IMG/VR virus record: IMGVR_UViG_3300046468_001139
Length of the DNA stretch: 64,000 nt
Reading direction: 5' to 3' (one strand)
Origin: a virus
Positions 302 through 64,000 of the stretch are shown in pieces; position 1 is the first letter of the stretch; the number at the start of each line of letters is the position of its first letter. A program made the translations under genes and the position numbers. Under the pieces are notes generated by a model that saw nothing but the letters and a program-made list of their open reading frames with translations, ran no database searches and was not told where the DNA came from.

Positions 302-817
302 ATGAAAATTAATCAAATAGTTACAGAAACAGCAGTATCTGAGGCTCCTGGCGGAAGTGCCCTAGGTAACCTAGCAAGAAAAGCTGGCGCAAAAGTAGCA
401 GGCGCCGTTGGCGCTAAAGGCACAGCGGCTGGCATGACGGGTAAAGTAGACCAAAACGCCAGAGCAAAAGAAATATTCACACAATATAGAGGCTATATGG
501 GTCAAACTGGTGGTAATCCAAAACAACCAACAGCAGATCAAGTTATGGACTTTTTACAAAAACAAAAACTTCCAACAAAGCGTATGCAGGGTGTACAAGG
601 ACAAATGACTCCTAAACAAGTAGACGATTTGTTACAAGGAATTGCACAAGATTCGTTTAAAGGTGCGGCAGGACAAGCGGCAACTGCAAGTAGTCCAGCT
701 AGTTTAGGTGATAAGTTTGGTTCAGCAAGTGCTCAAGGCGGTATACCGGCTGATTTACAAAAAGAAATTGACGCACTAAGTCCTCAAGACAAAGCAGAAT
801 TAGCAAAGTTACTATAA
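302..817 (+). CDS. hypothetical Ala/Gly/Gln-rich protein, possible internal head protein
   Basis: AGGAG RBS, late promoter, N-terminal hydrophobic-X-E motifs (VTE, VSE). Confidence 0.6.
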   Translation: MKINQIVTETAVSEAPGGSALGNLARKAGAKVAGAVGAKGTAAGMTGKVDQNARAKEIFTQYRGYMGQTGGNPKQPTADQVMDFLQKQKLPTKRMQGVQGQMTPKQVDDLLQGIAQDSFKGAAGQAATASSPASLGDKFGSASAQGGIPADLQKEIDALSPQDKAELAKLL

Positions 818-827
818 GGACTGAATA

Positions 828-2987
828 ATGAAACTCAACGAAGTACTCACAAGCAAGACTCAAACTATATTAAATGAAGGCTGGCAAGATCTTAACGAAG
901 CACAGCAAAATTATTTAACAAGGTTTGAATTAGAGCTTTGGCCACTGGTTGAGCAGTATTCAATACTAGCAGAAGCAGAACTTACACCAGATCAAATACA
1001 ATCAATCTTCAAAGGTGCTGAAGAAACAGCAATGGCCAGTGGAGATAATAAAACTGCACTAGGTAAAGTTGGAGCGGCGGCTAAGTTACCCGTTGATCTA
1101 GCTAAGAAAGTTGATGCAAAAATTAATGAGCTAGGCAGACTAGCACAAAACGCAGGCCCAGTTAAAAATGCTGATGCAAAGTTTGAAGAACTTAAAAAGA
1201 AAATTGGTTCAAGCGACAGTAAAATTGTTGCAGGCGTTAATAAAATTAGTGATTGGGCAAAAGCTAATCCAGGTAAGGCAACACTAGCAGTAGGTATACT
1301 AACAACCATTGCGGCATTTGCAGGAGGACCACTAGGTGGTGCGGCCGCAGGTCTAGTACTACGTGGTACTAAAGATTTATTACAAGGTGAAAAACTTTCA
1401 ACAGCAGTTGGTAAGTCAGTTAAAACAGCGGCATATGGTGCTCTTGTTGGAGCAGGCTTTAGATACTTGTCAGATAACATTATGGCCAACATGGCACTTG
1501 CAGATGAAGCTCAAGCAGATGCTATGATGAAAGGGTTTGAAGATGCAAACTTTGAAAAGGCAGTTGACGGTGCTATTGCTGATGCAGGATTTGATAAAGG
1601 TGTACTTGACGGTGCAATGCTTCATAAATCATCAGGTAACATTAACGGATTCTTTTACAACTACCACACAGTTTTTAAACCAGACGAACTTGCACAATAT
1701 AAAGATTTAGTAGCGGCAACACAGTCAGTAAAAGTATTTTCGCCAGAGTATTATAAAGCGGCAGGACAACTGCACGAATTTCTTTCTGCAACACAAACAG
1801 CAAACTCAGATCTTACAACACTAGCACTTGCTATTAAAGACATTCCAAAAGATGCGTTAACAAGTGATCAGATAGATGCTGTAATTGCTGTACTTGATGA
1901 TGGCGACAAAGCAATAGCGGCAGTTAACGATGCAGGCGGAGCAATAGCGGCGGCGGCACAAGGTGCGGCGGCAACAGTTGATGATGCTAAAAAAGAAATG
2001 CACAAAGTTAAACCTGTTGCACCAGAAGAAATGAAACAACTGGAACTTGATCTTAAAGGCGGAAGTGATGCAACACCTGTAGATAAAAACTTTGACAAGA
2101 GTCAAAAACTTTCAGACTTTGGAGCAGTAGGAGATAAAGCAGAATCAATTGATTATGAAGATGCATTTAACGAATACTTACAAGAAGCAGATCCAGCACA
2201 ACAAGAACTACCATTAGACAATCCTAATTCACTAGGTGCTAAACTAAAACGTGGTGCAGGTAAAGTTGCAAGTAAAGCCGCAGGAGCAGTTAAGCAAGGT
2301 GCGGGAGCAGTTGCTAAAGGTGCCAAAGGAGCAGTTGGTGCAGTTAAGCAAGGTGCTAAAGATGTAGGTAACAAAGTTACTGCTAACAAACTTAATAAAG
2401 ATTGGAAGAAGATGGGTGAACCAACTGATTCCGGTAGCATTGTAAATATTTTATCAGGTGCAGGATTAACTAACGATCAGATAAGCAGTATTGCAGGATC
2501 AACACAAGCACCAATTAGTCCAGACGAAGTAACTAAAGCTGATGCACAAACACCTACAGATGGTGCCGCAGACGCAACACAAGCGTCAACAGCAAGTGAT
2601 AATACAAAAGACACACAAACACCAGCTAAACCAACTAAAGCACCAGCAGAACCTGCTCAAGCTGAGCCTACAAACACAGGTGCAAAGAACTTAGACAGTA
2701 CAAATACTAAAGGCGCTCCAACTAAACCAGGCAAACAAGAACCATCTAGTAAACCAACAACGCCTAAAAAACCGGGTAGCAACACAGCTACACCTACACA
2801 AAGCAATGTTAAAGCACTAGCACAAAAAATTAAACAGTCTGGTGCAAATACAGACAGTATCAAACAAGACCTAGTAGGTGGTAGTACTACATCGCAAGGT
2901 AGCACAGTTGATTTGCCAGACTTAGCAACAAGAATTGCTAAAGCAGGTGTGCAGAAACAAGTACGACAGATGTTAATTGCAAAATGA
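828..2987 (+). CDS. large Ala/Gly-rich protein with hydrophobic segment and Pro/Thr-rich linker; possible internal or ejected virion protein
   Basis: 719-aa ORF; repeated L-X-E motifs (LNE x3, LQE); hydrophobic stretch LAVGILTTIAAFAGGPLGGAAAGLVL. Confidence 0.55.
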   Translation: MKLNEVLTSKTQTILNEGWQDLNEAQQNYLTRFELELWPLVEQYSILAEAELTPDQIQSIFKGAEETAMASGDNKTALGKVGAAAKLPVDLAKKVDAKINELGRLAQNAGPVKNADAKFEELKKKIGSSDSKIVAGVNKISDWAKANPGKATLAVGILTTIAAFAGGPLGGAAAGLVLRGTKDLLQGEKLSTAVGKSVKTAAYGALVGAGFRYLSDNIMANMALADEAQADAMMKGFEDANFEKAVDGAIADAGFDKGVLDGAMLHKSSGNINGFFYNYHTVFKPDELAQYKDLVAATQSVKVFSPEYYKAAGQLHEFLSATQTANSDLTTLALAIKDIPKDALTSDQIDAVIAVLDDGDKAIAAVNDAGGAIAAAAQGAAATVDDAKKEMHKVKPVAPEEMKQLELDLKGGSDATPVDKNFDKSQKLSDFGAVGDKAESIDYEDAFNEYLQEADPAQQELPLDNPNSLGAKLKRGAGKVASKAAGAVKQGAGAVAKGAKGAVGAVKQGAKDVGNKVTANKLNKDWKKMGEPTDSGSIVNILSGAGLTNDQISSIAGSTQAPISPDEVTKADAQTPTDGAADATQASTASDNTKDTQTPAKPTKAPAEPAQAEPTNTGAKNLDSTNTKGAPTKPGKQEPSSKPTTPKKPGSNTATPTQSNVKALAQKIKQSGANTDSIKQDLVGGSTTSQGSTVDLPDLATRIAKAGVQKQVRQMLIAK

Positions 2988-3139
2988 AACAGTATTTAAA
3001 AAATCTAATTAACTGGCACGAACAACATATACATGATTTCCAAAAATGCACAAAGCTATCCGACTATCAAATGATGTGGACAGCCTTTGCTAAAGGAGCA
3101 TTATTTTCGTGGGTTATATTTTATTTGATTTTCTGCTAA
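2984..3139 (+). CDS. small putative membrane protein (51 aa), absent from the ORF track
   Basis: ATGA overlap with the upstream stop; MKQYLKNLINWHEQHIHDFQKCTKLSDYQMMWTAFAKGALFSWVIFYLIFC*. Confidence 0.6.
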   Translation: MKQYLKNLINWHEQHIHDFQKCTKLSDYQMMWTAFAKGALFSWVIFYLIFC

Positions 3140-3142
3140 ATC

Positions 3143-3292
3143 CTACCAGAACGGTTGCCCAGTCTTTTTAGCAGTCTCTAAGTTTTCTTTAATTAGTTTA
3201 GCGAATATTTCTCTATCTTCAGGACCCACTTGATACATTTCTTCAAGACTAATTGCACCACGCATGTACCAACACAGGCGTGCAAGTTCCAT
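3143..3292 (-). CDS. gp51-like baseplate hub assembly ORF; frame is open upstream to the gp26 slippery site (probable frameshift extension)
   Basis: MELARLCWYMRGAISLEEMYQVGPEDREIFAKLIKENLETAKKTGQPFW*; directly downstream of gp26 as in T4 26-51; -1 frame relative to gp26. Confidence 0.65.
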   Translation of the reverse strand: MELARLCWYMRGAISLEEMYQVGPEDREIFAKLIKENLETAKKTGQPFW

Positions 3293-3335
3293 CTTGATGT
3301 TTTTTGTCTCGTTTTCTAGGTTGTCGACCAGTCTT

Positions 3336-3379
3336 AGGATATCCTCTAGAGACTTAGAAGCTATCCTTATACGAAAAAA
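3336..3379 (-). promoter_or_regulatory. putative -1 programmed ribosomal frameshift signal
   Basis: T TTT TTC heptamer (3379-3373), 5-nt spacer, hairpin AGGATA-G-CTTCTA-AGTCTC-TAGAGG-A-TATCCT (3367-3336). Confidence 0.65.
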
Positions 3380-4230
3380 TTTGATTGATCAAACGAAACA
3401 GGCATTTCCCATTGCTTAGGTGCGCCTTCTTTGATTTCTTCTTCTGTTGCGTCAACTGTGATTGGCTCTAACGTAAACTTTTTCTTTTGTGATTCCATAC
3501 TTTCAACAACAGAAGAATAAAACTTCTTGTCTGCATTTTGTATAAACTGTTGAATGTGTAATTTGTCAGTTACAACATCTTCACCTGTTTGGATCGATAC
3601 AATTCCTTGCATGACCATATCAACTGTAATACTTGTTAAGCGTTGGAATGCTTGATTAAAGATTTCTAGTTTTTGTTCTTCTGTCATATCATCTTCTTGT
3701 ATGACTGAAGCAATACGCTGTTCTTCAAAAGTCTTAGTTGCAACTTTTGTAAACTCACGATACGTTTGCGGCCTTACTGTAAGGGTAAGCTCGTCTATTG
3801 TAAGAGTATCATCAAACGCAACATTTTGAAACTTGTCAAGTACTACTCTTAAGTCTAGGTCAAATTTACGTTCTAGTTTTGTATTTGGGATTTTAGAAGT
3901 TAATTCTAATTTCTCCCCGTATGTGGCAATTCTAATAGCAACCAATAGTGTATCAATATCAAGTGTTGGTATGTCCCAACCGTTTTTAATATTAGGTACA
4001 CAACTTTGGATAACATCAACTGTAGATTGACCGTTAAGTAATGCATCAGGAGTTTTAAACATAAGTTCATCTCTTGCCGTCATTGCATAAACAGGGAATT
4101 CCATATTGTCTGTTACTTCTAAACTTCCATTAGGATACCATCTGCCGTTGCTTGGCAACTTAATGTAAATTTTTGGTTGCCTAAAATACTTCTGTAACGG
4201 ATTGGCTCCGCTTCTCTCTATTTCTGGCAT
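3367..4230 (-). CDS. gp26: T4 gp26-like baseplate hub assembly protein / tail chaperone
   Basis: P.IYIKLPS.G, MTARDE, DID.LLVAIR..TYGE motifs and C-terminal NFF typical of T4-like gp26. Confidence 0.75.
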   Translation of the reverse strand: MPEIERSGANPLQKYFRQPKIYIKLPSNGRWYPNGSLEVTDNMEFPVYAMTARDELMFKTPDALLNGQSTVDVIQSCVPNIKNGWDIPTLDIDTLLVAIRIATYGEKLELTSKIPNTKLERKFDLDLRVVLDKFQNVAFDDTLTIDELTLTVRPQTYREFTKVATKTFEEQRIASVIQEDDMTEEQKLEIFNQAFQRLTSITVDMVMQGIVSIQTGEDVVTDKLHIQQFIQNADKKFYSSVVESMESQKKKFTLEPITVDATEEEIKEGAPKQWEMPVSFDQSNFFV

Positions 4231-4242
4231 GGTTTTTCTCCG

Positions 4243-4276
4243 GATAAATAATAAGTGTTCATATAGTATATTTATG
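4243..4276. promoter_or_regulatory. pair of face-to-face late promoters (GATAAATA + strand 4243-4250; CATAAATA - strand 4269-4276)
   Basis: Motifs lie in the intergenic space between divergent gp26 and the tape-measure-like gene. Confidence 0.6.
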
Positions 4277-4303
4277 AATCTGAGTTATATAGGTACTTAA
4301 TAA

Positions 4304-6937
4304 ATGGTTGATGTCACATACAGAGGCGGTGGAATGGATGGAGTTACTAGCAATGCGGCTAGTGAAGCTACTCTCCAACGTCTAGTTGCACTAATGGAAA
4401 AAGGCTCCAAGGGCGGTGGTGCGGCCACTGAAAAAATGGCAAATGACGTCAAAACCAAAGGCGTTGCTATATCTAAAGAAGATAACAAGGCTACAGCAGA
4501 AGGTACTGAAGCTAAGAAAGACGCAACCAAAGCACAGAAGAAACTTTCAGAACGAGTTAGAAATACTGCAAAAGCATTTGATAGATACTCATTAGGACTA
4601 TTCAGCGGAATAGGTAATACTATCCAAACATTTGGTGGTCTTGGTAAAGAACTAATTGCTGGCGGTAATCGAATAAGTGACTTTGGACAGCATGTTACAG
4701 GACTAATATCAAAATTTCCTATTGTAGGCGGCGTGATTGGTCAGTTTGGCCAAACAATGCTGAATGTACTTGATAATCAAATTGACATGTACAGATCATT
4801 GTCTGGAGCAGGTATTGACTTTGGTTCTAGTATGTTTGAAATGCAAAGACGTGCCGCTGAAGCAGGATTAAACATGGCTACCTTAGCAGGTACAATACAA
4901 GAAAATTCACAGATGTTAGCAGTAGCATTTGGCGGTGCAACTACAGGTGCTGATAGATTTTCTAAAATTTCAAAATATGTACAGCAATCACAAACAGATT
5001 TTTCTAAACTAGGTATGACAATGGAAGATGTAACTGAGTTTACAGCTGACTATATTGACTTACAAAGAATTCAAGGTAGATTGAAAGATCGTTCTGATAG
5101 AAGTCTTGCTAAAGGCACACAGAATTATATTATGCAACTTGATGCACTTGCTAAAATTACAGGTATGTCTAGAAAGCAAGCCGCAGAAGAATTAAAAGCT
5201 CAAAGTACTGATAAGAGATTACAAGCATTGTTCATGAACATGGATTCTAGCGTTCAAGAACAAATGAATGCTAGTTTAGCATTGATCAAAGGCGGAAGTC
5301 CAGAAATGGAAGACGCAATAAAAGAATTGATTGCAACTAACGGTGCTCCATTAAGTGACTTTGGAAAGAGTTTGCTACGAACTAATCCAGAGTTTGCAAC
5401 AATGGCACAAGGATTGAGAGATGGTTCTTTATCAGCAGATGATTTTGCAGAGATGACTAACTTGCAAGTAGAAGAAGCAAAAAGGTTTGTTAAGGAAAAT
5501 GCGGCAGTAATTGCACAATCACAAGCACTAGGTGATACTACATATGATGCTGTATTAGCACTAGCAAAAATGGGTGAAGTTGGTGGAAAACTTAGTGATG
5601 CAGAACAAAAACAATTAGATGCTATTGCGGCTAAAGATAAAACACTTACTGACTTTGATAGTATGATTGAAAAGATACGTAGTACTATCTTAGTTAAATT
5701 GCTTGACTCAGGTATATTTGACAAACTGCAAAAAGTAATGTCAGACCTTACAGCATGGTTCAACAAAGACGAAACACAAACATCTATTCAGGGATTTGTT
5801 GATAGACTAGGAACATTGTTTGACAACCTTGGTACAATGGTTGAAGACTTTAAAAAAGATTGGGGCAAGTTAAGCATTGGTGAACTAGTAACCAAGTATC
5901 TTATTAATCCTATCAAAACATTATTTGGTGCTGACACAGGTCCGCCACCAGGACATCCGGAGCATAATAAAAATGCAGGTTCGAAATCAAGTGGACTAAT
6001 GGGAGGATTGTTTGAATCATTAGGTCCAATAATTGAAAAATTTGAATCGTGGGGTAAAGCATTAATGTGGGGCGGTATTGGTGCCGCGGCTGTATTAATT
6101 GGATTCACAGCGGCTGTTGCGGCTATGGCGGCTCCGTTAGCATTAGCAACGCCAGGCGTTTTGGCAATTGGAGTAGCATTTGCTGGAGTAGGTGTAGCAG
6201 GATTTGGAATTGCGGCGTTGATAGATTCGATCACCACATCTGTTGACAATGTTGCAGTTGGATTGAAAAAGTTTGAAGACCTTGATTCAAAAAAATTAGG
6301 TGACGTTGGTGGGGCCTTAAAACCACTTACAGATAATATTATGGGTCTTGCTAAAGGCGGTGTTGTTGCATCGTTTATGAGTGAAGGCGTATTAGAAAAA
6401 ATTGCCGCAGGCGTTAAATCGTTTGAAGGTATTGATTCTAAATCAATGAAGGATATGGGTCCTGCATTAACTAGTTTACAAACAGGTATTGCGGCATTTA
6501 CCGGTGACGGTATTATGGATAGCTTTAGTAAATTCATTGGCGGATTGTTTGGCAATGATGGTGGAATGAAAGATATGGCTGACGACCTTGAGGCGTTTGC
6601 TGATATTGATTCCGCTGGAATTAAAGCTATTGGAGATGGGTTACAAGGCATTGCGGCATATATTGAAACTATGGATGGTGCAAACCTTAAACAAGTAACC
6701 AAAAACTTAAAAGAATTAATTAAACAAATTGGACAATACAACGAAGAATACAAAAATATGGATGCTGAAACCAAAGCATCGTTTACTAAAGTATTAAATG
6801 TCAATAATGAGAGTCAAGATAAGTCGAGTAGCTTACTGAATCAGTTAAATAGTACTAACACACTTATATTAGATGAACTTAAAAAACAAACTAAAGGTGG
6901 AAAAGCTATGACAAACGCAATATCAGGAGCGGCATAA
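4304..6937 (+). CDS. tape measure-like protein
   Basis: 877 aa, predicted helical, Ala/Gly/Leu-rich with a long hydrophobic segment (WGGIGAAAVLIGF...FGIAALI); adjacent to gp26/gp51 chaperones. Confidence 0.65.
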   Translation: MVDVTYRGGGMDGVTSNAASEATLQRLVALMEKGSKGGGAATEKMANDVKTKGVAISKEDNKATAEGTEAKKDATKAQKKLSERVRNTAKAFDRYSLGLFSGIGNTIQTFGGLGKELIAGGNRISDFGQHVTGLISKFPIVGGVIGQFGQTMLNVLDNQIDMYRSLSGAGIDFGSSMFEMQRRAAEAGLNMATLAGTIQENSQMLAVAFGGATTGADRFSKISKYVQQSQTDFSKLGMTMEDVTEFTADYIDLQRIQGRLKDRSDRSLAKGTQNYIMQLDALAKITGMSRKQAAEELKAQSTDKRLQALFMNMDSSVQEQMNASLALIKGGSPEMEDAIKELIATNGAPLSDFGKSLLRTNPEFATMAQGLRDGSLSADDFAEMTNLQVEEAKRFVKENAAVIAQSQALGDTTYDAVLALAKMGEVGGKLSDAEQKQLDAIAAKDKTLTDFDSMIEKIRSTILVKLLDSGIFDKLQKVMSDLTAWFNKDETQTSIQGFVDRLGTLFDNLGTMVEDFKKDWGKLSIGELVTKYLINPIKTLFGADTGPPPGHPEHNKNAGSKSSGLMGGLFESLGPIIEKFESWGKALMWGGIGAAAVLIGFTAAVAAMAAPLALATPGVLAIGVAFAGVGVAGFGIAALIDSITTSVDNVAVGLKKFEDLDSKKLGDVGGALKPLTDNIMGLAKGGVVASFMSEGVLEKIAAGVKSFEGIDSKSMKDMGPALTSLQTGIAAFTGDGIMDSFSKFIGGLFGNDGGMKDMADDLEAFADIDSAGIKAIGDGLQGIAAYIETMDGANLKQVTKNLKELIKQIGQYNEEYKNMDAETKASFTKVLNVNNESQDKSSSLLNQLNSTNTLILDELKKQTKGGKAMTNAISGAA

Positions 6938-8673: not shown

Positions 8674-8681
8674 ATATTAAC

Positions 8682-8927
8682 ATGATACTACGTGAACTAT
8701 TTTATTTTGATAAAGAAACTTTGGAGCCAGTTGAAAACAACGCTTACGATCCCAAGTCTGATGATTCAATTATGAAAAAAGACGACACACGTAAGACACG
8801 TTTAACATTACGTCAGATAAACAAAATGCGTAAAGCATCTGATTTGCACAAAGAGGAGCAGGACAAGGAATTACATTTCGTAAGACAAATGTATGGACTT
8901 GCCGCGAATGCAGAACAGGCTGTTTAA
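8682..8927 (+). CDS. small conserved-looking head-module protein
   Basis: 81 aa; DTRKTRLTLRQINKMRK, V..MYG; follows the portal; TAAATA upstream. Confidence 0.6.
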   Translation: MILRELFYFDKETLEPVENNAYDPKSDDSIMKKDDTRKTRLTLRQINKMRKASDLHKEEQDKELHFVRQMYGLAANAEQAV

Positions 8928-8929
8928 AA

Positions 8930-9532
8930 ATGTCAATAGCATTTGTTATTGGTAACGGCACGTCAAGAAAACCTATACCCTTAGAACCACTTAAAGCACA
9001 CGGAACATTATATGCCTGTAACGCTGTTTACAGATCAGGATTAAGACCTGACTATCTTGTTGCTGTAGATACTAAGATGGTTACTGAAATTAACAATTCA
9101 AAGTATCAACACGAAAACAAAGTTTGGACTAATCCAAACAAACTATACGAAAAATTTCATTGCTTTAACTACTTTGCTGATCCTTTAGGTTGGTCAAGTG
9201 GACCTACAGCATTATGGTTAGCATCTTATGGTGCAGATCATCAACACAGCGAAATATACATACTAGGCTTTGACTACGAAGGAATAGAAGGCAAAATTAA
9301 TAATTTGTATGCAAATACAAAAAACTACAAAAGAAGCGAAGAAGTAGCAACATATCATGGCAATTGGAGCAGGCAAACAGGAATAGTAATTCAAAAAAAT
9401 GTTGGAAAGAGATATATACGTGTAGTAGAGAATAAGGATGATTACTGCCCAGACAATTTAAGACCCTTAGGTAACCTATCCCATATTACAGTAGCTGAAT
9501 TCACTGAAAAATTCGTGAATTTACAATCTTAA
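8930..9532 (+). CDS. DUF115/MptE-like or sialyltransferase-like Rossmann protein
   Basis: FVIGNGTSR, YACNA.YR, DYLVAVD, SSGPTAL, IYILGFD motifs. Confidence 0.5.
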   Translation: MSIAFVIGNGTSRKPIPLEPLKAHGTLYACNAVYRSGLRPDYLVAVDTKMVTEINNSKYQHENKVWTNPNKLYEKFHCFNYFADPLGWSSGPTALWLASYGADHQHSEIYILGFDYEGIEGKINNLYANTKNYKRSEEVATYHGNWSRQTGIVIQKNVGKRYIRVVENKDDYCPDNLRPLGNLSHITVAEFTEKFVNLQS

Positions 9533-55752: not shown

Positions 55753-56199
55753 TTAGATATCCGACTCTTGTAATAACGAAACTAGTTGAAATACTGTTTG
55801 TAGTTTAGTTAAGTTTTGTTTATTTTGTAATGTGTTGCGTAATCCCATGTGCAATGGCTTTGGCCAATTTTGAAAACTAACCCAAGCATATCCGTTATGC
55901 TCGTCATTTAGTAAAGGTAAAAATTCATCTTTTACAACACACAAATAAGTATGAAATTGAAACTTATCATCATTACTTACAAATGTTTCTAATGGGATTG
56001 ATTTAATAATTTTTGGAACGCTACCAAGTTCTTCTTTAACTTCACGTAGCAGAGCTTTGTAAGGGATTTCTGTATCTTCGTTAGTTCCCCCAACAAGACC
56101 CCAAACATTATTTTGTTTTGATTGTGTACGGTGTAAGAATAAGAAACGTTGTGTTGTCAACGAATAGAATAGAGCACCACTACAAATAATTTGTTCCAT
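55753..56199 (-). CDS. NUDIX hydrolase
   Basis: GG..E......L.RE..EE.G Nudix box; LNDEH.GYAW. Confidence 0.85.
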   Translation of the reverse strand: MEQIICSGALFYSLTTQRFLFLHRTQSKQNNVWGLVGGTNEDTEIPYKALLREVKEELGSVPKIIKSIPLETFVSNDDKFQFHTYLCVVKDEFLPLLNDEHNGYAWVSFQNWPKPLHMGLRNTLQNKQNLTKLQTVFQLVSLLQESDI

Positions 56200-56211
56200 A
56201 CAAGTACTTAT

Positions 56212-57630
56212 TTAGAGTACTAAACGCCAGCTTCCTTTTCGATACTCGCCTTCAAAGGATAGTGTCCATTCTACACCGTCCCATTTGTATTGTATACCAG
56301 TAGTTAAATTGGTTGTATATGTTATGTCAGTTGATGGCTCTGTTTTGGTACTTGAATCAAATACTATTTGCCATTCTGTTCCAGACCATTCAATAATATC
56401 GTTTTCACTAGCAACTAGTGTGTCATTACCGCCACTATCTTTCCAAGCATCGGCGCCATCTGTGTTATCTGTAGAACCAATATCTCCTAGTAATAATATT
56501 CTGTTACCAGGTACTTTTAAGTTAGTTGGATTAGTTCTAGTTGGATCAATAATTGCATCAATAGTTCCTTTTTGTGGACTATTTGGTAATCCTAATACTG
56601 TATTAGTTGGAATAGTATCTTCGTCCCAATTAACAATAAGTTGTGTTTCGTCTAAATCATTTAGTGCAATAGTACCTACAACTGGAGCGGCTAAATCGAT
56701 TCTGTTTAGATAAATTTTACTTAATCCTGCTCTATATTCACCAGGTTCTACTTCAAGGTATTCACGCCAATTAATTTCACCTGATATACCATTCTTACCA
56801 AGTTGTACAATATTGTTAGTAACAATAGCATCGTAGTTTAATGCTGTGTTCACTTGTATGTGTATTCTTTCTGAACTGTCTTTGTTTTTAGTACTGTTTG
56901 CCCAACTGTCATCATAAGCATTAAGCTCTGGCATTGATTTTCCTAAATCAATAGTACCTTTAGTTTCATCAAAGATACTCATTATAACACTTGTTATGAC
57001 ACCTAGCTTTTTAACTTTAGCTGGAGGACTAATATAAATTGGTGTTGAAAACGATAGTGTTGCTACATCTATTTCAGTATCAATTCCCATAGGAATAGTT
57101 CTTCCACTAAAAACAATATTTTCTAAATCAACAACACTTAAACTTGTCCAGTCTACATAGTTGTCTGTAGTTTGTATTTCTAAACTAGGATTAAAGAACA
57201 TTAATAGCTGTTCCATAATTTGTAGTTTTTGTTCTGTGTTAGTAGACCAAATATCTGCATTAACTTTTAGTGTATATGGTGTAGGCATTAAACGTTCAAC
57301 AGTATAATTGTTACCCTGTGTGTTTAAATATTCTTTACCTTCTGCATCATATTCACGTTCTCTAAGATGTACTTTGCCGGTGTATGTAGCATCAGCAGTT
57401 CTAGTACGATCCATTTCTAATCCAGTAACATATACTCCTATACGTGGAGCACTTGGTATTTTATTTTCGCTATTGTCTTTTATAATGGCGCCAACTTGTC
57501 TTGTAATATCTCCGTACATAACAGGAACTTGAACAAGATTACCTTTGCTATCAGCATACGAAAAGTTACTCATTAGTCTTACTAGCTGAGTAATGTATCT
57601 TCTTATTTGTCCATCATAAAAGTGTTGCAT
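56212..57630 (-). CDS. gp15: tail sheath stabiliser / tail completion protein, extended
   Basis: FYD.QIRRY, VPV.YG, P.PY.L, QKLQI.EQ....FNP. Confidence 0.8.
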   Translation of the reverse strand: MQHFYDGQIRRYITQLVRLMSNFSYADSKGNLVQVPVMYGDITRQVGAIIKDNSENKIPSAPRIGVYVTGLEMDRTRTADATYTGKVHLREREYDAEGKEYLNTQGNNYTVERLMPTPYTLKVNADIWSTNTEQKLQIMEQLLMFFNPSLEIQTTDNYVDWTSLSVVDLENIVFSGRTIPMGIDTEIDVATLSFSTPIYISPPAKVKKLGVITSVIMSIFDETKGTIDLGKSMPELNAYDDSWANSTKNKDSSERIHIQVNTALNYDAIVTNNIVQLGKNGISGEINWREYLEVEPGEYRAGLSKIYLNRIDLAAPVVGTIALNDLDETQLIVNWDEDTIPTNTVLGLPNSPQKGTIDAIIDPTRTNPTNLKVPGNRILLLGDIGSTDNTDGADAWKDSGGNDTLVASENDIIEWSGTEWQIVFDSSTKTEPSTDITYTTNLTTGIQYKWDGVEWTLSFEGEYRKGSWRLVL

Positions 57631-57632
57631 TG

Positions 57633-57818
57633 TTATCCCTTACACTTTGGGCAGTTACAATCTCTAATTAGGAAATGCACAACTGCCATAGTAAACCACA
57701 TCCATGACATTTCACCTATACCAAATAAGCTAGGTCCGTGGTTCATATGTCCCATGTCGTTATTTAAAAAATATACGCCTAAAATTAAAAATAGTATTCC
57801 TGCAATTTTATGTCTCAT
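57633..57818 (-). CDS. small membrane protein with C-terminal CxCxxC
   Basis: Two hydrophobic segments; overlaps the gp14 stop (TAATG). Confidence 0.55.
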   Translation of the reverse strand: MRHKIAGILFLILGVYFLNNDMGHMNHGPSLFGIGEMSWMWFTMAVVHFLIRDCNCPKCKG

Positions 57819-58975
57819 TAATTATCCGCCTTCGGTTTTAAAATTTTACTCAACGGTTGTCTTTCTGTTACAGTTTCGTCACCAATAACATTCTGTGATG
57901 CGTTGTTAACAAATGTACCTTTTTGTGTTGCTTTAGTATCTGTATTTGTCATTGTCATACGTACTGAATCTTCTTGTTTGACCCAACGGCTACCGTCTTG
58001 TCTAAATAATCTATTAGGCATAAAGTCTGTCCTTAACCAATAGTCTCCTTCGACTGAGTTAGTTGGGAAACTAGGACCATGTCCAAACGCTTCTCCATTA
58101 GGTGGTACACCATCGCCAACCAAATAACCATTGTACTCAGAGCGTGTTGGTGTTTCTGAAATTCTATCAACTAATAGTTCTTGTGAACTTGCATCAATAT
58201 CTGATATGTCTGTAGTTTTTAATGCTACGTTACCATTGTCATCTTTAGCAATAGTATATAAGTTTGTAGTATCATAACCTGACTTAGGTGCATCAGCTTC
58301 TGCTTGAGCAAGTACAGCATTATTAATCTGCATTTCTTTTTCGTATGTACTAAGAACATCACGTAGTGTATTTGTACTTCCTTCTTCTGAAGGTAAATCA
58401 AGTATTTCTTTAAACTCTTGTGAGTCAACAATTTGTTTTAATTTAATTCTGTATAAATGCGGATACCAAGTTTGTGTAAATCCTTCAGCGGCTCTGTTTA
58501 CATCTTCTACAACATAAAAACGTTTTAGTGCTACACTATAATCATTAAGTGCATGTTCGTCTTTTAAGTGTGGAAGTTCAATAACATCTCCTGGCATAAT
58601 TTTACGCCCTAGTGTTCTAACACTATAATTAATAGGAATTGTCATAAACAATGTATCGTTTTGTAAGAACAATCCGAATTGACTCATATCAAAGTCAATA
58701 TCTTGTATATTATAAATGCCACGCATTTTATAAATGTCTGGATCATACTTACGATCTCTGTTTTCTAAGAACAACATGTCTTGTATGTTGGTTTCTTTAA
58801 CAGCATCATAACGAGGTTGTGCAGGCGTAGCGTCTGCTTCGTCTGGATTTGCGGGGCCTAGATACTTGTGTACAAAGACATCTGTACCACCTACTGTAAA
58901 CATTTCGGTAATAGTTTTGTCTAAGAAATCGTAATCATTGCCCTTTTCGGGTTTGTATAAACTGAGTCTTGGCAT
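57818..58975 (-). CDS. gp14: neck / head completion protein (start revised to MPRLSLYKPE)
   Basis: D.LFLENRDR.Y, MSQFGLF, GDVIELPH; late promoter 8 nt upstream. Confidence 0.75.
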   Translation of the reverse strand: MPRLSLYKPEKGNDYDFLDKTITEMFTVGGTDVFVHKYLGPANPDEADATPAQPRYDAVKETNIQDMLFLENRDRKYDPDIYKMRGIYNIQDIDFDMSQFGLFLQNDTLFMTIPINYSVRTLGRKIMPGDVIELPHLKDEHALNDYSVALKRFYVVEDVNRAAEGFTQTWYPHLYRIKLKQIVDSQEFKEILDLPSEEGSTNTLRDVLSTYEKEMQINNAVLAQAEADAPKSGYDTTNLYTIAKDDNGNVALKTTDISDIDASSQELLVDRISETPTRSEYNGYLVGDGVPPNGEAFGHGPSFPTNSVEGDYWLRTDFMPNRLFRQDGSRWVKQEDSVRMTMTNTDTKATQKGTFVNNASQNVIGDETVTERQPLSKILKPKADN

Positions 58976-58983
58976 AGTATAAG

Positions 58984-59004
58984 TATTTATCGTTAGCATA
59001 AATA
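58984..59004. promoter_or_regulatory. back-to-back late promoters for gp14 (-) and gp13 (+)
   Basis: TATTTATC 58984-58991; CATAAATA 58997-59004. Confidence 0.65.
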
Positions 59005-59021
59005 CTAGTGGAGAACAAGAA

Positions 59022-59777
59022 ATGGCATTAAGCACACAAAAACAAGATGTATTCGATTATGTAAACGCTATGTTAGGCGGAGGCATGATTGATGTTGAAC
59101 TTGACCCTATTCATTATGAAACTGCACTAGAAAAAGCCCTTGGCAAATTTAGACAGCGTTCAGATAATTCAGTCGAAGAGTCATATCTTTTTATGCCTAC
59201 GATAATTGATCAAAATGAATATACGTTACCGCAAGAAGTAACTGAGGTTAGGAAATTATTTAGACGCTCAATTGGATCACGTTCAGGTGGCGGTGATGGC
59301 GGTACTTTATTTGAACCATTCAACATGGCATACACAAATACGTACTTGTTATCAAGTTCTAACATGGGCGGACTAGCAACATATGATATGTTTAGTCAGT
59401 ACCAAGAACTTGTAGGACGTATGTTTGGTTCTTTTATCGAATTCAATTGGAATACTACAACTAAAAAATTAACACTTTTACAACGTCCAAGAGCAGAAGA
59501 AACATTACTTCTTTATGTGTATAATCACAGACCAGATAGTGAATTGCTTAATGATTATCTTGGTAAGCAATGGATTAAAGATTATACCCTTGCTAGTTGT
59601 AAGTATATGCTAGGCGAAGCACGTTCAAAGTTCGCAACCATTGCAGGACCACAAGGTGGTTCAACGCTTAACGGTGATGCACTCAAAGCAGAAGCACAAG
59701 CTGAAATGGAAAAGCTAGAAGAAGAACTAAAAACACAAGTAGCAGGCGGCGTAGGCTACGGATTCACAATCGGCTAA
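59022..59777 (+). CDS. gp13: neck protein
   Basis: LG...IDVEL, WIKDY.LA..K..LG..RSKF....GP.GG..LNG. Confidence 0.85.
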   Translation: MALSTQKQDVFDYVNAMLGGGMIDVELDPIHYETALEKALGKFRQRSDNSVEESYLFMPTIIDQNEYTLPQEVTEVRKLFRRSIGSRSGGGDGGTLFEPFNMAYTNTYLLSSSNMGGLATYDMFSQYQELVGRMFGSFIEFNWNTTTKKLTLLQRPRAEETLLLYVYNHRPDSELLNDYLGKQWIKDYTLASCKYMLGEARSKFATIAGPQGGSTLNGDALKAEAQAEMEKLEEELKTQVAGGVGYGFTIG

Positions 59778-59784
59778 TAAACAC

Positions 59785-59813
59785 TTGACTTCCTGATAAA
59801 TCTATTGTATAAT
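59785..59813 (+). promoter_or_regulatory. sigma70 promoter
   Basis: TTGACT-17 bp-TATAAT. Confidence 0.8.
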
Positions 59814-59840
59814 AGTTTTTATTTTATGAGGAGTCAGACT

Positions 59841-60434
59841 TTGATTATTGGTGTATGTGGATTAATTGGTAGCGGTAAAGATACTATTGCTGATTATTTG
59901 ATTAGCAATCACAACTTTCAAAAAATATCATTTGCAGATAAACTTAAAGATAGCGTAGGCGTTATGTTTGGGTGGAGCAGAGATATGCTTGATGGTAAAA
60001 CAACAGAATCTAGAGAATGGCGTGAAAAAGTAGACGAGTTTTGGACAAAAGAAACTGGACGTACAATTACACCTAGATTAGTATTACAAGAATTTGGTAC
60101 AGAATGTATGCGTAACGGATTCTATGATGGTATTTGGGTATCCTTAGTAAAACAGAAAATTATTGACAATCCAGACATTAATTGGGTACTTCCTGATACA
60201 CGTTTTCCTAACGAAGCAAAAATGCTACACGAAGTAGGTGGACATGTATGGCGTGTAAAGCGTGGCGAAGATCCTAAGTGGTTTACAGAGTATGTTGAGT
60301 TTGATACAGAGCCTACTGATATACATCCTAGTGAATGGGCTTGGGCTCATACTAAATTTTCACAAACATTAGAAAACAACGGTACTATTGATGAACTTAG
60401 AAGTCAGGTAGCAAATCACCTTGCTTCCATTTAA
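59841..60434 (+). CDS. gp1: deoxynucleoside monophosphate kinase (TTG start after GAGGAG)
   Basis: G.IGSGKDT P-loop, FAD.LK, TPR.VLQ..GTE, D.RF.NE, H.SE. Confidence 0.9.
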   Translation: MIIGVCGLIGSGKDTIADYLISNHNFQKISFADKLKDSVGVMFGWSRDMLDGKTTESREWREKVDEFWTKETGRTITPRLVLQEFGTECMRNGFYDGIWVSLVKQKIIDNPDINWVLPDTRFPNEAKMLHEVGGHVWRVKRGEDPKWFTEYVEFDTEPTDIHPSEWAWAHTKFSQTLENNGTIDELRSQVANHLASI

Positions 60435-60735
60435 ATCCTTCTTTGTACATAATTTTACTACAATTGGCACATATTGTTTTTAAGTTGCTAAATCTTACGT
60501 TGTTAAGATCACCGTCAATATAATATACTGAAAACTGTTCCTTGTGTTTGCTTTTAAAGCCACACTTGTCGCAAACTTGTTTCTTTTCATATCCAGACTG
60601 TTTCCATTTAGGACTACCATGTATAGGCTTACCGTGCCTGGCACATGACTCACACTTGCTTCTATAAAAAGGTTTTCCTTTTTTGTAATAGTTAATTGCT
60701 ACTGGTTTAACGCCACATTTGCATAAAGGTCTCAT
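60397..60735 (-). CDS. Zn-finger / degenerate HNH-like protein (start revised to MRPLCKCG)
   Basis: CxC, CxxC, CxxCGF, YYIDGDLNN...NLKTICANC. Confidence 0.65.
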   Translation of the reverse strand: MRPLCKCGVKPVAINYYKKGKPFYRSKCESCARHGKPIHGSPKWKQSGYEKKQVCDKCGFKSKHKEQFSVYYIDGDLNNVRFSNLKTICANCSKIMYKEGFKWKQGDLLPDF

Positions 60736-60803
60736 ATATGTATTTACCTGCCCTTTTTGATCCCTTTTTCGGGGTAGATAAAGAGGCCTTTTATGCAAAT
60801 TGG

Positions 60804-60811
60804 TATAAATA
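60804..60811 (+). promoter_or_regulatory. late promoter TATAAATA
   Basis: Exact consensus upstream of the tail sheath RBS. Confidence 0.75.
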
Positions 60812-60845
60812 ATAGTAACATGCTATATCAACAGGAGAAAATAAA

Positions 60846-63800
60846 ATGGCTTTAGTATCACCAGGAGTACAGGTCAGCGTTATAGACGAAAGTTTCTATA
60901 CCCCAGCTGAGCCAGGTACAGTACCAATGATTTTTGTTGTTTCCGCACAAGACAAAACGAACGGTGCTGGAACAGGAACTGCGGCGGCAACGACTGCGGC
61001 AAACGCAGGTAAACCTTATTTGGTTACCTCACAGAGAGAATTAACAGACTTGTTTGGAGATCCAACTTTCTATACGGACACAAACAACAATGCACTACAT
61101 GGTAGTGAATTAAATGAATACGGGTTACAAGCGGCCTACTCATACTTAGGAGTAGCTAACAGAGCTTATGTAACTAGAGCAACACTAAACACATCAGAGC
61201 TAATTGCTTCTGCTACGGCGCCAGCGGCGAATCCAGCAGATGGAACATATTGGTTCGATACAGCAAATAGTGTGTTTGGTATTTTTGAATGGAACGGCGC
61301 GGCGGCTACTGTTACTGGTGGACAGAGCTTTACTAATAAAGTTCCTACAGTAATTACAGATACTACTAAAGTAACAGGCGGAGTACCAAAAACTTCTGTT
61401 GGTGCAATTGGTGATTACGCTATTGTTGCTACTACTACACTTAACAAATTGTTCTACAAAAAGAGCGATGGTAGTTGGGTACAAGTAGGATCAACAGCAT
61501 GGATTAGTGCATGGGCAACTGTAACAGGAACGATTTCAAATCCAACTGTTTCAAATGGTGCTTCAATGAGCATTAACGGTACTGTTGTAACAAGTGGCGG
61601 AACAGCATTAAGTGATGTTGTATCAGCTATTGGTTCAGCAGGTATTGCTGGAGTTAGTTCAGCAGTAGTTAACAACAAATTAGAGATTTACTCAACAGGC
61701 GTAGACGTTGTATTAGCAACTAACGCTTCAACACTATTAGCAGAGATAGGTTTAACGGCGGCTACTTATAAAGCACCTAAAAATACTATTGCTCCGCATA
61801 CTAGTGTACCTGAGTACAAGTCAACAGATACTGCTCCAAGACCAACTGGAAGTATTTGGGTTAAAACTACACAACCTAACTTAGGTGCTAACTGGAAAGT
61901 TAAAATGTGGAACGCAACAACTAGCTTGTGGGAAACTAAAGCGGCTCCAATGTATGCATCACCTGAGGCGGCATTACACGGCTTAGATAAAGCAGGCGGT
62001 GGTAAGAACTTAGCAGTTGGAACTGTTTACATCAAAACTAACAATGATGAAGCAACTGATCCAATTGGTGACTTTAAAATACACAGAAGACAGTCAACAG
62101 GTAATACTAAAATTACTTCAGACATTATTACAACACAAGTAGTTACAGGAACTTATGCATTTGATATTGCAGAAACTGTTCCAGCAAGTGCTACGTTAAG
62201 TGCGGCAGTAACAGTTAGTGTAACAACTAACGGTGCGGCTGACGATGCAGACGATATTGCAGGCGCAATTAACTCCGCAGGATTAACTAACGTTGTAGCA
62301 AGTGTTGACGCTTCAAACAGAATAGTTATTGAACACAATGACGGTGGTGACATCCACATTACAGATACTAACAGCGGATTAGCTTTAGCAGGATTTGTAG
62401 CTTACAATGGCTCAAATGCGGCAACAGCAACTCCAAACTTATATACAGATGCTTCAGGTAATGCATTTGATATGGTTGCTAGTAACTGGAAATACTTAAC
62501 ATACACACCAAGTACAACTGCTCCAACAGCATTAACAGCTGACGGTGCATTATGGTACAACAGTATTGTAGACGAAGTAGACATGATGATCCACAATGGT
62601 ACTACATGGGTAGGATACCAAGACTCAACAGCACCGTTCTACGATGCTAATAGTGCAGACAAAACTGATCCAAATGGACCAATTGTTAGTGCTACTGAGC
62701 CTACTAAACAGTCAGATGATACTGATCTTAAAAATGGTGACATTTGGATTAGCACAGCAGACTTAGAAAACTATCCAAAAGTTTACAAATACAACGCTAC
62801 TTCATTAAAGTGGATTGCACTTGATACAGGTGACCAAACTACTGAAGATGGTATATTATTTGCAGATGCACGTTATGGTACAAGCGGTGTTAACGGTGAT
62901 ACAGCGGCAACGATCCCAGCATTACTAGTAAGCAACTTCTTAGACTTTGACGCTCCAGATCCAGCACTATATCCAAAAGGTATGTTGCTATGGAACACTA
63001 GACGTTCAGGATTTAACGTTAAGAAATATGTACGTAACTACATTGATACTACAGGACTTAACATTAGATTTAACAATGACGAGTCAATGGCGGCATACGC
63101 AACTAACAGATGGGTAACTGAATCAGCTAACCAAGAAAATGGTGCAGGCTCATTTGGTAGAAAAGCTCAACGTAAAGTTGTAGTACAAGCATTACAAGCA
63201 ATGGTTAACAGCAACGCTGATATTAGAGATGATAATTCAAGAATCTTTAACTTAATGGCTTGCCCAGGTTACTCAGAGCTAATTGGTGAAATGAAAACAC
63301 TTAACTATGATAGAGGCATTAGTGCGTTTGTTGTAGGTGACTTACCGTTTAGATTAACACCAGATGCAACAACATTAAACAACTATGCAACTAACGTAAA
63401 TGGTGCAGTTGAAGATAATGATGATGGACTTGTAACATACGATGAATATTTAGGTGTGTTTTATCCAAGTTTATTCACAAGTGATAACGCAGGTAACAAC
63501 GTAGTTGTTCCAGCAAGTCACGGTATCCTAAGAACAATGGCATTAAGCGATCAAGTATCGTTTCCATGGTTTGCTCCAGCAGGAACAAGACGTGGTGGAA
63601 TTACAAATGCTTCAAGTGCAGGATACATTACAAGCGAAGGTGAATTCCAAAGCGTAGCACTTAACGAAGGACAGCGTGATACATTATACGGTAATGCTAT
63701 TAACCCTGTAACGTTCTTAAGTGGTGCAGGACTTGTTAACTTTGGTCAAAAGACAAGAGCTAAAAATGCTAGTGCTTTAGACAGAATCAACGTTGCAAGA

Positions 63801-64000
63801 CTAGTAATTTACTTACGTTCGCAGTTTAACAAACTTGCTAAACCTTATATCTTTGAGCCAAATGACAAAATCACACGTGATGAGATTAAAGCACAGGCAG
63901 ATAGTTTACTATTAGAGCTAGTAGGACAAAGAGCATTATATGACTTCTTAGTAGTATGTGACGAAAGTAACAATACTCCAACAAGAATTGATAGAAATGA
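60846..64000 (+). CDS. gp18: tail sheath protein (partial, runs off window; not in ORF track)
   Basis: MALVSPGVQVSVIDES start; PWFAPAGTRRG, RINVARL, FEPND, DFLVVCDESNNTP. Confidence 0.93.
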   Translation, partial: MALVSPGVQVSVIDESFYTPAEPGTVPMIFVVSAQDKTNGAGTGTAAATTAANAGKPYLVTSQRELTDLFGDPTFYTDTNNNALHGSELNEYGLQAAYSYLGVANRAYVTRATLNTSELIASATAPAANPADGTYWFDTANSVFGIFEWNGAAATVTGGQSFTNKVPTVITDTTKVTGGVPKTSVGAIGDYAIVATTTLNKLFYKKSDGSWVQVGSTAWISAWATVTGTISNPTVSNGASMSINGTVVTSGGTALSDVVSAIGSAGIAGVSSAVVNNKLEIYSTGVDVVLATNASTLLAEIGLTAATYKAPKNTIAPHTSVPEYKSTDTAPRPTGSIWVKTTQPNLGANWKVKMWNATTSLWETKAAPMYASPEAALHGLDKAGGGKNLAVGTVYIKTNNDEATDPIGDFKIHRRQSTGNTKITSDIITTQVVTGTYAFDIAETVPASATLSAAVTVSVTTNGAADDADDIAGAINSAGLTNVVASVDASNRIVIEHNDGGDIHITDTNSGLALAGFVAYNGSNAATATPNLYTDASGNAFDMVASNWKYLTYTPSTTAPTALTADGALWYNSIVDEVDMMIHNGTTWVGYQDSTAPFYDANSADKTDPNGPIVSATEPTKQSDDTDLKNGDIWISTADLENYPKVYKYNATSLKWIALDTGDQTTEDGILFADARYGTSGVNGDTAATIPALLVSNFLDFDAPDPALYPKGMLLWNTRRSGFNVKKYVRNYIDTTGLNIRFNNDESMAAYATNRWVTESANQENGAGSFGRKAQRKVVVQALQAMVNSNADIRDDNSRIFNLMACPGYSELIGEMKTLNYDRGISAFVVGDLPFRLTPDATTLNNYATNVNGAVEDNDDGLVTYDEYLGVFYPSLFTSDNAGNNVVVPASHGILRTMALSDQVSFPWFAPAGTRRGGITNASSAGYITSEGEFQSVALNEGQRDTLYGNAINPVTFLSGAGLVNFGQKTRAKNASALDRINVARLVIYLRSQFNKLAKPYIFEPNDKITRDEIKAQADSLLLELVGQRALYDFLVVCDESNNTPTRIDRN

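What the first reader, a model, noticed from the sequence alone, without database searches (positions are those of the whole stretch)
421..63950. Apparent avoidance of GCWGC (GCAGC/GCTGC) across the window
Seen: single Ala codons are mostly GCA/GCT, yet every Ala-Ala pair I inspected starts with GCG or GCC. Examples are gcg gcg gcg gca near 1947, gcc gcg gct near 6083, gcg gct several times in gp23, and gcg gcg gca at 60981. Cys-Cys pairs in the Cys-rich genes use TGC TGT, TGT TGC or TGT TGT, never TGC TGC. I found no GCAGC/GCTGC by eye, although dozens would be expected from composition. GCGGC/GCCGC are common, so the target is GCWGC, not GCNGC. Inference: selection against a host restriction-modification system of TseI/ApeKI-type specificity, which could help identify the host.
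Basis: partly seen in the sequence, partly recalled or inferred. Interest (0 to 1): 0.7.

Follow-up and report, generated by a model that had tools for sequence, protein, structure and literature searches.

The report
Phage DNA purged of GCWGC sites
This stretch of an abundant, uncultured giant marine phage has removed every copy of the 5-letter word GCWGC by swapping synonymous codons, the classic footprint of dodging DNA-cutting defence enzymes; the same footprint is also common in phages of the ocean bacterium SAR11, which gives a testable lead to the unknown host.

Summary
The 64-kb window has 0 GCAGC/GCTGC. Expected counts are 50 (base composition), 82–91 (Markov) and 122±5 (synonymous codon shuffle). 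GCWGC is the most depleted 5-mer.

All 137 Ala codons that precede another Ala are GCG or GCC, although 86% of all Ala codons are GCA or GCT.

Three long relatives (341 kb in total) also have 0, against about 350 expected. Most of the clade, at the same GC content, has normal counts. On a portal tree the trait arose at least three times.

A second group of relatives removes only HGCWGCD and keeps sites with a 5' G or a 3' C at the expected frequency.

Best reading (0.75): selection against a restriction-type defence that targets GCWGC (TseI/ApeKI-type; BbvI-type cannot be excluded).

New here: unrelated T7-like SAR11 phages share the purge. Cultured HTVC105P and HTVC109P have 0 sites, and 44 of 66 uncultured relatives have 0. 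By contrast, 0 of 73 cyanopodovirus loci, 0 of 46 HTVC008M-type loci and six non-SAR11 marine phages show it. The SAR11 host lead is tentative, because the window is not GANTC-depleted as many pelagiphages are.

This scan had already noted GCWGC purging on other DNA (at least 28 genomes). The kind of feature is known.

The parts
1..64000 (.). Whole window free of GCAGC/GCTGC on both strands, in coding DNA (97%) and non-coding DNA (about 2 kb)
1947..1958 (+). Ala run written GCG GCG GCG GCA (rare Ala codons used before another Ala)
6083..6091 (+). Ala-Ala-Ala written GCC GCG GCT
60981..60989 (+). Ala-Ala-Ala written GCG GCG GCA
12387..13553 (+). Major capsid gene; all seven Ala-Ala pairs start with GCG. 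The protein is 66-72% identical to capsid proteins of jumbo myoviruses (Phosso, Vibrio 2.275.O, PA5oct, GAP32)
6937..8673 (+). Portal gene (phrog_213), used as the marker to collect relatives and to build the tree on which the trait was mapped
52265..59035 (-). Block of minus-strand genes (includes the tail sheath gene 56212-57630), equally free of sites, so the avoidance does not depend on strand

Best explanation
The window is part of an uncultured marine T4-like jumbo phage of roughly 350 kb. Its lineage has been under long, strong selection to carry no GCWGC (GCAGC or GCTGC, one and the same double-stranded word). The most likely agent is a restriction-type defence of its host population that cuts unmodified GCWGC (TseI/ApeKI-type G^CWGC, or BbvI-type GCAGC). 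A phage genome with no sites cannot be cut, and no protecting DNA methylase was found. Shown: the sites were removed, and are kept out, by synonymous changes in all three reading frames. Ala-Ala GCW-GCN became GCS-GCN. The nGC-WGC and nnG-CWG-Cnn combinations are avoided through other Ser, Cys, Gln and Leu codons. Also shown: the trait is specific to lineages and arose repeatedly. Sister lineages erase different extra palindromes, or only the 7-bp form HGCWGCD. Unrelated SAR11 podoviruses carry the same purge. Inferred: the agent is a host enzyme, and the host is SAR11 or shares its pool of defence genes.
For: Depletion: 0 against 82-122 expected in the window. G002 has 0 of about 151, G003 0 of about 114-129 and G004 0 of about 87-91 over a further 341 kb. 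Compensation: GCSGC 150 against 36; 137 of 137 Ala-before-Ala codons are GCS, against 17% in the non-avoider G006; frames 1 and 2 hold 0 sites, against 47 and 61 in G006. Relatives with matched composition are normal. On the portal tree the window sits in an all-avoider clade of 10 (SH-aLRT 99); there are at least two further avoider clades, and well-supported branches force at least 3 changes. After collapsing loci at 95% portal identity there are 11 zero, 3 seven-bp and 44 normal clusters. An enzyme-like sharpness of specificity: G005 has HGCWGCD 0 of 162-165 expected, while flanked sites are at expectation (63 against 58-72), and the flank rule is symmetric. The window's clade also removes the flanked sites (0 of 25, 48, 38 and 26). 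Each lineage removes its own further palindromes: AGCT 0 of 226-337 in G004, and RCATGY 0 in G003 and G004. No C5 or N4/N6 DNA methylase was found in five relatives' records. Mosaics are tolerated: L057 has a 2-kb patch with 10 sites, and HTVC019P has all 13 of its sites in one 3.4-kb segment. The same purge occurs in unrelated phages: HTVC109P 0 of 45-50 and HTVC105P 0 of 37-42, and 44 of 66 HTVC019P-type loci have 0 (pooled 0 of 556). It is absent from 73 cyanopodovirus loci, 46 HTVC008M-type loci and six cultured non-SAR11 marine phages. Enzymes with this specificity exist: TseI (PMC3643589), ApeKI and its methylase (PMC8557920), and M.AbaBS3I in an environmental Chloroflexi genome (PMC6329791).
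Against: No host and no GCWGC-specific enzyme was identified. The one R-M-like cassette examined, on AT-rich contigs binned together with related phage contigs, has a methylase that aligns over its full length with M.HhaI (GCGC), not with a known GCWGC enzyme. The relatives' records are 27-49% complete, so a phage methylase or nuclease elsewhere in the genome cannot be ruled out. That would make the phage's own nuclease the agent. On the SAR11 host lead specifically: the window's clade is not GANTC-depleted (O/E 0.74-1.0), whereas 4 of 6 cultured pelagiphages are (0.01-0.13). HTVC008M and HTVC010P, which also infect SAR11, have normal GCWGC counts.
Confidence: 0.75

Rival explanations
1. Self-sparing. 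The phage itself encodes a GCWGC-specific endonuclease without a methylase and uses it to degrade host DNA. The phage genome survives because it has no sites.
For: Here, no protecting methylase was found in the relatives, which is what this model requires. A two-gene cassette of unknown function upstream of the portal occurs only in avoider loci of three lineages.
Against: That cassette has no nuclease domain and is absent from the window. Each sister lineage erases several different palindromes, which would require several nucleases per phage. Compact T7-like pelagiphages share the purge, yet their large ORFs are all annotated as replication, structural or lysis genes, with only the usual T7-type endonuclease I and exonuclease. 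A viable cultured phage (HTVC019P) and L057 carry imported patches full of sites inside otherwise purged genomes, which would be self-destructive under this model.
Confidence: 0.12
2. Avoidance of being marked. A host or previous-host methylase methylates GCWGC, and a modification-dependent enzyme (BisI-type, which cuts methylated GCNGC) in the next host cuts the marked DNA. Having no sites escapes both.
For: BisI-family enzymes that cut methylated GCNGC or GCWGC exist (PMC4926085 and PMC11347163, listed). The sequence footprint would be identical to that of classical avoidance.
Against: GCSGC sites are abundant and even enriched. A GCNGC-wide, methyl-dependent enzyme combined with a GCNGC methylase would therefore not be avoided. 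This model needs two components where one is enough. No direct evidence was found here.
Confidence: 0.06
3. Neutral causes: mutation bias (for example deamination of methylated cytosines), lower-order k-mer or codon bias, or an assembly artefact.
For: The genome is AT-rich and has strong codon preferences. GC-containing words such as GCGC are generally somewhat depleted.
Against: 0 of 82-122 under every null. The main replacement changes the central W to S, which is not a cytosine deamination product and goes against codon preference. Relatives with matched composition are normal. The flank rule in G005 is all-or-none. The same result is seen in independent assemblies from many samples; 20 runs from 18 studies hold the window's sequence.
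Confidence: 0.02

Closest known systems
Restriction-site (short palindrome) avoidance in lytic dsDNA phages (own knowledge: Sharp 1986; Rocha et al. 2001; Rusinov et al. 2018; for example the GATC-free Staphylococcus phage K)
   Same: A short R-M-type word is completely or nearly completely missing. It was removed by synonymous codon choice, the trait is lineage-specific, and no protecting methylase is evident.
   Different: The host is unknown and uncultured, so the matching enzyme cannot be named. The target here is the 5-bp word GCWGC in a marine jumbo phage of about 350 kb. A sister group shows a 7-bp variant (HGCWGCD), and no paper in the searched library holds that motif.
GANTC depletion in about half of the known pelagiphages (Seong et al. 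2022, PMC9516812)
   Same: Motif depletion divides phage clades of a marine host that was thought to lack R-M systems. I reproduced it: GANTC O/E is 0.01-0.13 in HTVC011P, 019P, 105P and 008M.
   Different: The motif is different. That paper does not mention GCWGC, and the window's clade is not GANTC-depleted.
R-M systems and methylases of GCWGC/GCAGC specificity: TseI (PMC3643589), ApeKI and M.ApeKI (PMC8557920), M.AbaBS3I in a lake Chloroflexi genome (PMC6329791), BbvI (own knowledge)
   Same: The recognition word equals the avoided word. GCSGC is not a target, which matches its abundance here.
   Different: None of these comes from a plausible host of this phage. In marine methylomes, GCWGC methylation was seen only in one Chloroflexi MAG (PMC8919816). 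SMRT sequencing detects 5-methylcytosine poorly (own knowledge), so 5mC systems may have been missed.
Earlier reports of this scan on other jumbo-phage windows (e1-5337658, e1-5344891, e1-5365990, e1-5678668, e1-5348055, e1-5406559)
   Same: The same GCWGC purge with recoded Ala-Ala pairs, the G-flank survivors in some genomes, and joint AGCT avoidance in some.
   Different: This window removes the flanked sites too. The link to cultured and uncultured SAR11 podoviruses, and the negative control surveys, are not in those notes.

Membership tests
Restriction-site avoidance in phages | The word is far rarer than composition-aware and codon-aware nulls predict | tested here: met
   0 against 50/82/91/122 expected; most depleted 5-mer
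Restriction-site avoidance in phages | Removal is by synonymous changes, without loss of the encoded residues | tested here: met
   137 of 137 Ala-Ala pairs use GCS first; frames 1 and 2 are empty while the dipeptides are present
Restriction-site avoidance in phages | The word matches the specificity of known restriction enzymes | tested here: met
   TseI and ApeKI G^CWGC and M.AbaBS3I (papers found); BbvI GCAGC from own knowledge
Restriction-site avoidance in phages | The host carries an R-M system of that specificity | not testable with these tools
   The host is unknown. The only cassette examined, on co-binned AT-rich contigs, is HhaI-like. No REBASE copy is available here.
Restriction-site avoidance in phages | The trait follows lineage or host, not general composition | tested here: met
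   It clusters on the portal tree and arose repeatedly; relatives of the same GC content are normal
Restriction-site avoidance in phages | No self-protecting methylase of that specificity in the phage | tested here: inconclusive
   No PF00145 or PF01555 match in G002-G006, but those records are only 27-49% complete
TseI/ApeKI-type palindromic (Type IIP) target as opposed to BbvI-type (Type IIS) | Symmetric recognition of GCWGC | tested here: inconclusive
   In the window the two cannot be told apart, because GCAGC is the reverse complement of GCTGC. In the 7-bp relatives the protective flank works on either side in either orientation, which fits a palindromic target.
Self-sparing phage nuclease (restriction enzyme without methylase) | A restriction-like nuclease gene in the purged genome that co-varies with the purge | tested here: inconclusive
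   ORF clustering found only one avoider-only cassette near the portal. It has no nuclease domain and is absent from the window. Most of the genome was not sampled.
Phage of SAR11 (pelagiphage) | Shares sequence signatures with cultured SAR11 phages | tested here: inconclusive
   It shares the total GCWGC purge but not the GANTC depletion. Related jumbo contigs are binned with AT-rich contigs of small genomes, and once with a pelagiphage contig, which is weak evidence.

The most novel reading that the evidence does not exclude
Being GCWGC-free is a host-range barcode. This abundant, uncultured jumbo-phage lineage of about 350 kb infects SAR11 (Pelagibacter), or a host that shares its pool of defence genes. 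Part of the SAR11 population carries a GCWGC-directed restriction system, probably 5-methylcytosine-based and therefore missed by SMRT methylomes. That system has driven complete site loss in two unrelated phage families. A related enzyme with the unreported specificity HGCWGCD acts on sister lineages.
Probability: 0.3. Interest if true: 0.75.

Novelty: new member of a known kind. Interest (0 to 1): 0.5.

Why it matters
Hosts of marine jumbo phages are mostly unknown (PMC9123017). SAR11 was long described as lacking R-M systems (PMC9516812), although a 2026 preprint finds them in strain-specific islands (10.64898/2026.04.03.716430).

A word that is wiped out completely in some lineages and untouched in their sisters is a cheap, sequence-only marker of which defence a phage meets. 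Here it ties a jumbo-phage lineage to the purge seen in two thirds of HTVC019P-type SAR11 podovirus loci.

It also predicts two enzyme specificities, GCWGC and HGCWGCD, to look for in marine bacteria. The all-or-none pattern implies that restriction is a strong and lasting selective force in the open ocean.

Tried and rejected
1. Whole genome of the window: not held. Megablast of 8 kb against the phage collection found no match.

2. Counting the motif through the genome search: the pattern was too short for the tool, so I fetched the records instead.

3. Trade-off with DNA modification: no TGT/DpdA match, and only one sub-threshold QueC-like match, in G002-G006. This gives no support for a 7-deazaguanine pathway in these fragments, but the fragments are incomplete.

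4. Host from MAG labels: close portal relatives sit in MAGs labelled Neomarinimicrobiota, Rickettsiales, SAR86, Bacteroidales, Polynucleobacter and others. These are mis-binned phage contigs, so the labels were rejected as host evidence.

5. Cellular contigs of those MAGs are not GCWGC-depleted.

6. R-M cassette on G008 contig C15: Pfam and NCBIfam give only generic C5 methylase matches. The neighbouring ORFs match nothing in Pfam, NCBIfam or the PDB. The methylase is HhaI-like. There is no link to GCWGC.

7. Organism names for the relatives of G008 are not given by the tools. 'SAR11-like' therefore rests on GC content (27-30%), genome size (0.8-1.6 Mb) and the old 'Rickettsiales' label.

8. 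Avoider-only gene cassette near the portal: no recognisable domain and absent from the window, so it was dropped.

9. Cys-Cys codon pairs as separate evidence: too few are expected.

10. Literature: no paper holds HGCWGCD, and none links Pelagibacter with GCAGC or GCWGC avoidance.

11. Not run: read laying, structure prediction and the large protein searches. None would have decided between the explanations.
Full report
**What the window is.** The window encodes a T4-like structural module: portal (phrog_213), tail sheath, major capsid, giant fibre and baseplate proteins, and sugar-tailoring enzymes. The portal is 45-49% identical, and the capsid protein 66-72% identical, to those of cultured jumbo myoviruses of Alpha- and Gammaproteobacteria (Phosso, Atu_ph07, PA5oct, GAP32, Vibrio phage 2.275.O). 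IMG/VR relatives of 98-176 kb are rated 27-49% complete. The genome is therefore about 350 kb. Near-identical sequence is held by 20 seawater runs from 18 studies.

**The observation.** GCAGC and GCTGC both occur 0 times in 64,000 bases. GCGGC occurs 119 times and GCCGC 32 times. Expected counts of GCWGC are 50 (base composition), 82 (order-1 Markov) and 91 (order-3 Markov). Shuffling synonymous codons within each of 51 crudely called genes gives 122 +/- 5.3, and never fewer than 107 in 300 shuffles. In an unbiased scan, GCWGC is the most depleted 5-mer and the only absent one with an expectation above 8. GCAGC is the reverse complement of GCTGC, so 'GCWGC' and 'GCAGC on either strand' are the same set of double-stranded sites.

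**How the sites are avoided.** Ala codons overall are 86% GCA or GCT. Yet all 137 Ala codons followed by another Ala are GCG (103) or GCC (34). In the non-avoiding relative G006, 83% of such codons are GCW. This accounts for the GCSGC excess (150 against 36 expected, z = +21). The other two reading frames (nGC-WGC and nnG-CWG-Cnn) are also empty, against 47 and 61 sites in G006. The Cys-Cys detail is true but uninformative.

**Comparison with relatives.** Eighty IMG/VR loci carry portals 71-100% identical to the window's. Their counts fall into two groups: either zero, or at or above expectation, all at the same GC content. Whole records give 0 of about 151 (G002, 117 kb), 0 of about 114-129 (G003, 127 kb), 0 of about 87-91 (G004, 98 kb), 63 of about 225 (G005) and 355 of 286-372 (G006). 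On a portal tree the window lies in an all-avoider clade of ten (SH-aLRT 99). There are further avoider clades, and well-supported branches force at least three changes. After collapsing loci at 95% portal identity there are 11 zero, 3 seven-bp-type and 44 normal clusters.

**A second specificity.** All 63 remaining sites in G005 have a G just 5' of the site or a C just 3' of it. HGCWGCD is 0 against 162-165 expected, while flanked sites are at expectation (63 against 58-72). Either flank protects in either orientation. The same rule holds in L042/L043, L054, L063, a 335-kb contig from the Red Sea (L118/L119), and a relative with only 52% portal identity and 44% GC (L129). The window's own clade removes flanked sites as well: 0 of 25, 48, 38 and 26 expected. 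The clade therefore shows two distinct, sharp avoidance targets. Sharp, symmetric rules of this kind are what an enzyme's specificity produces, and mutation bias would not produce them. Earlier notes of this scan read the G-flank rule as a guanine modification. I found no TGT or QueC genes in these fragments, which does not settle the matter.

**Other erased words.** G004 has no AGCT (0 of 226-337). G003 and G004 have no RCATGY. The window has no GCATGC or GCTAGC, and few GCWWGC, CTGCAG, GCGC or CASTG. G006 has almost no AGCGCT. Each lineage has its own set of erased words, as expected if each meets a different repertoire of restriction systems. No C5 or N4/N6 DNA methylase was found in five relatives' records.

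**Host lead.** Portal relatives occur in MAGs with many unrelated labels. These are mis-binned phage contigs. In MAG G008 ('Rickettsiales MED657'), five of six sampled contigs (35-39% GC) have no GCWGC and essentially no AGCT. At least two of them are clearly phage of this clade. The 27-30% GC cellular contigs have normal counts. The nearest relatives of G008 have genomes of 0.8-1.6 Mb.

In MAG G009, one GCWGC-free contig with no homology to the jumbo clade (L153) proved to be a T7-like podovirus. Its portal is 91% identical to that of Pelagibacter phage HTVC109P. Counts in cultured SAR11 phages are:
- HTVC109P: 0 of 45-50.
- HTVC105P: 0 of 37-42.
- HTVC011P: 3 of 33-41.
- HTVC019P: 13 of 42-46, all 13 inside one 3.4-kb tail-fibre segment that also lacks the compensating GCSGC. 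This looks like an imported module.
- HTVC010P and HTVC008M: normal.

Six non-SAR11 marine phages (P-SSP7, P-SSM2, S-PM2, SIO1, HMO-2011, Vibrio 2.275.O) show no avoidance: five have counts above the order-1 expectation, and HMO-2011 is only mildly low (112 against 134-160).

Among uncultured relatives, 44 of 66 informative HTVC019P-type loci have zero GCWGC (0 of 556 expected over 522 kb). None of 73 P-SSP7-type loci and none of 46 HTVC008M-type loci do (Fisher p = 5e-20 for the first contrast).

**Limits of the host lead.** The window's clade is not GANTC-depleted (O/E 0.74-1.0), unlike four of the six cultured pelagiphages (their depletion was published in PMC9516812). Two SAR11 phage types have normal GCWGC counts. 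Co-binning is weak evidence. The only R-M-like cassette I examined on the AT-rich contigs has an HhaI-like (GCGC) methylase. I put SAR11, or a host sharing its defence pool, at about 0.3.

**Explanations.** Selection against GCWGC-directed restriction by the host population is the simplest account of all the observations (0.75). It remains possible (0.12). It fits poorly, however, with the several different words erased per lineage, with the same purge in compact T7-like genomes whose large ORFs are all accounted for, and with viable mosaics that carry site-rich patches. A methyl-dependent variant (BisI-type) gives the same footprint (0.06). Neutral causes are contradicted by the counts (0.02).

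**Novelty.** Restriction-site avoidance is a textbook phenomenon, and this scan had already noted GCWGC purging in at least 28 other genomes. This window is a new member of a known kind. The additions here are the clean separation of the 5-bp and 7-bp targets within one clade, and the first link, within this scan and within the searched literature, between the purge and cultured SAR11 phages.

Noticed in passing
L094-L098 (G004, 97.9 kb); also L130, L125, L145, L146, L149, L150: AGCT is completely absent (0 of 226-337 expected in G004) together with GCWGC in several relatives, including phage contigs binned into MAG G008. AGCT is also about 3-4 times depleted in HTVC008M, P-SSM2 and S-PM2.
   Followed up: partly
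L087-L098 (G003, G004): RCATGY (NspI-type word) has 0 copies in both records (17-150 expected, depending on the model).
   Followed up: no
window 1-64000: Further depleted words: GCATGC 0 and GCTAGC 0; GCWWGC 5 against 29-49; CTGCAG 2 against 13-29; GCGC 25 against 68-72; CACTG/CAGTG 29-30 against 68-98; AACC/GGTT 304-318 against 416-577. The last is the most depleted 4-mer and is unexplained.
   Followed up: partly
L099-L107 (G005); L042, L043, L054, L063, L118, L119, L129: These relatives erase only HGCWGCD. Sites with a 5' G or a 3' C stay at the expected frequency. No paper in the searched library holds this 7-bp motif.
   Followed up: yes
L168 (HTVC019P) 34134-37518: All 13 GCWGC sites of this cultured SAR11 phage lie in one 3.4-kb tail-fibre segment that also has no GCSGC. 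It looks like a module recently imported from a phage that is not purged.
   Followed up: partly
L268-L269 (HTVC011P): GCWGC is nearly absent (3 of 33-41 expected) but there is no compensating GCSGC (0 copies), unlike the other purged phages. This phage avoids the sites by a different route, or avoids GCNGC as a whole.
   Followed up: no
L139 (G008 contig C15, 51935-55894): On a 27-30% GC cellular contig there are two tandem C5 methylase genes, one aligning over its full length with M.HhaI. Next to them are two convergent ORFs (261 and 221 aa) that match nothing in Pfam, NCBIfam or the PDB. This is a likely Type II R-M cassette in a SAR11-like MAG.
   Followed up: partly
L006 5833-7336 (-); also L008, L124, L125, L129: A two-gene cassette (about 356 and 169 aa, no confident domain) upstream of the portal occurs only in GCWGC-avoiding loci of three lineages and in none of 54 non-avoider loci. 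It is absent from the window.
   Followed up: partly
L145-L166, L118-L138: Several public MAGs (MED657, MED589, RS350 and others) are mixtures of cellular contigs and jumbo-phage or pelagiphage contigs.
   Followed up: partly
L170-L249: One cluster of pelagipodovirus loci whose portals are at least 95% identical mixes GCWGC-free and normal loci. This points to fast turnover or recombination of the trait.
   Followed up: no
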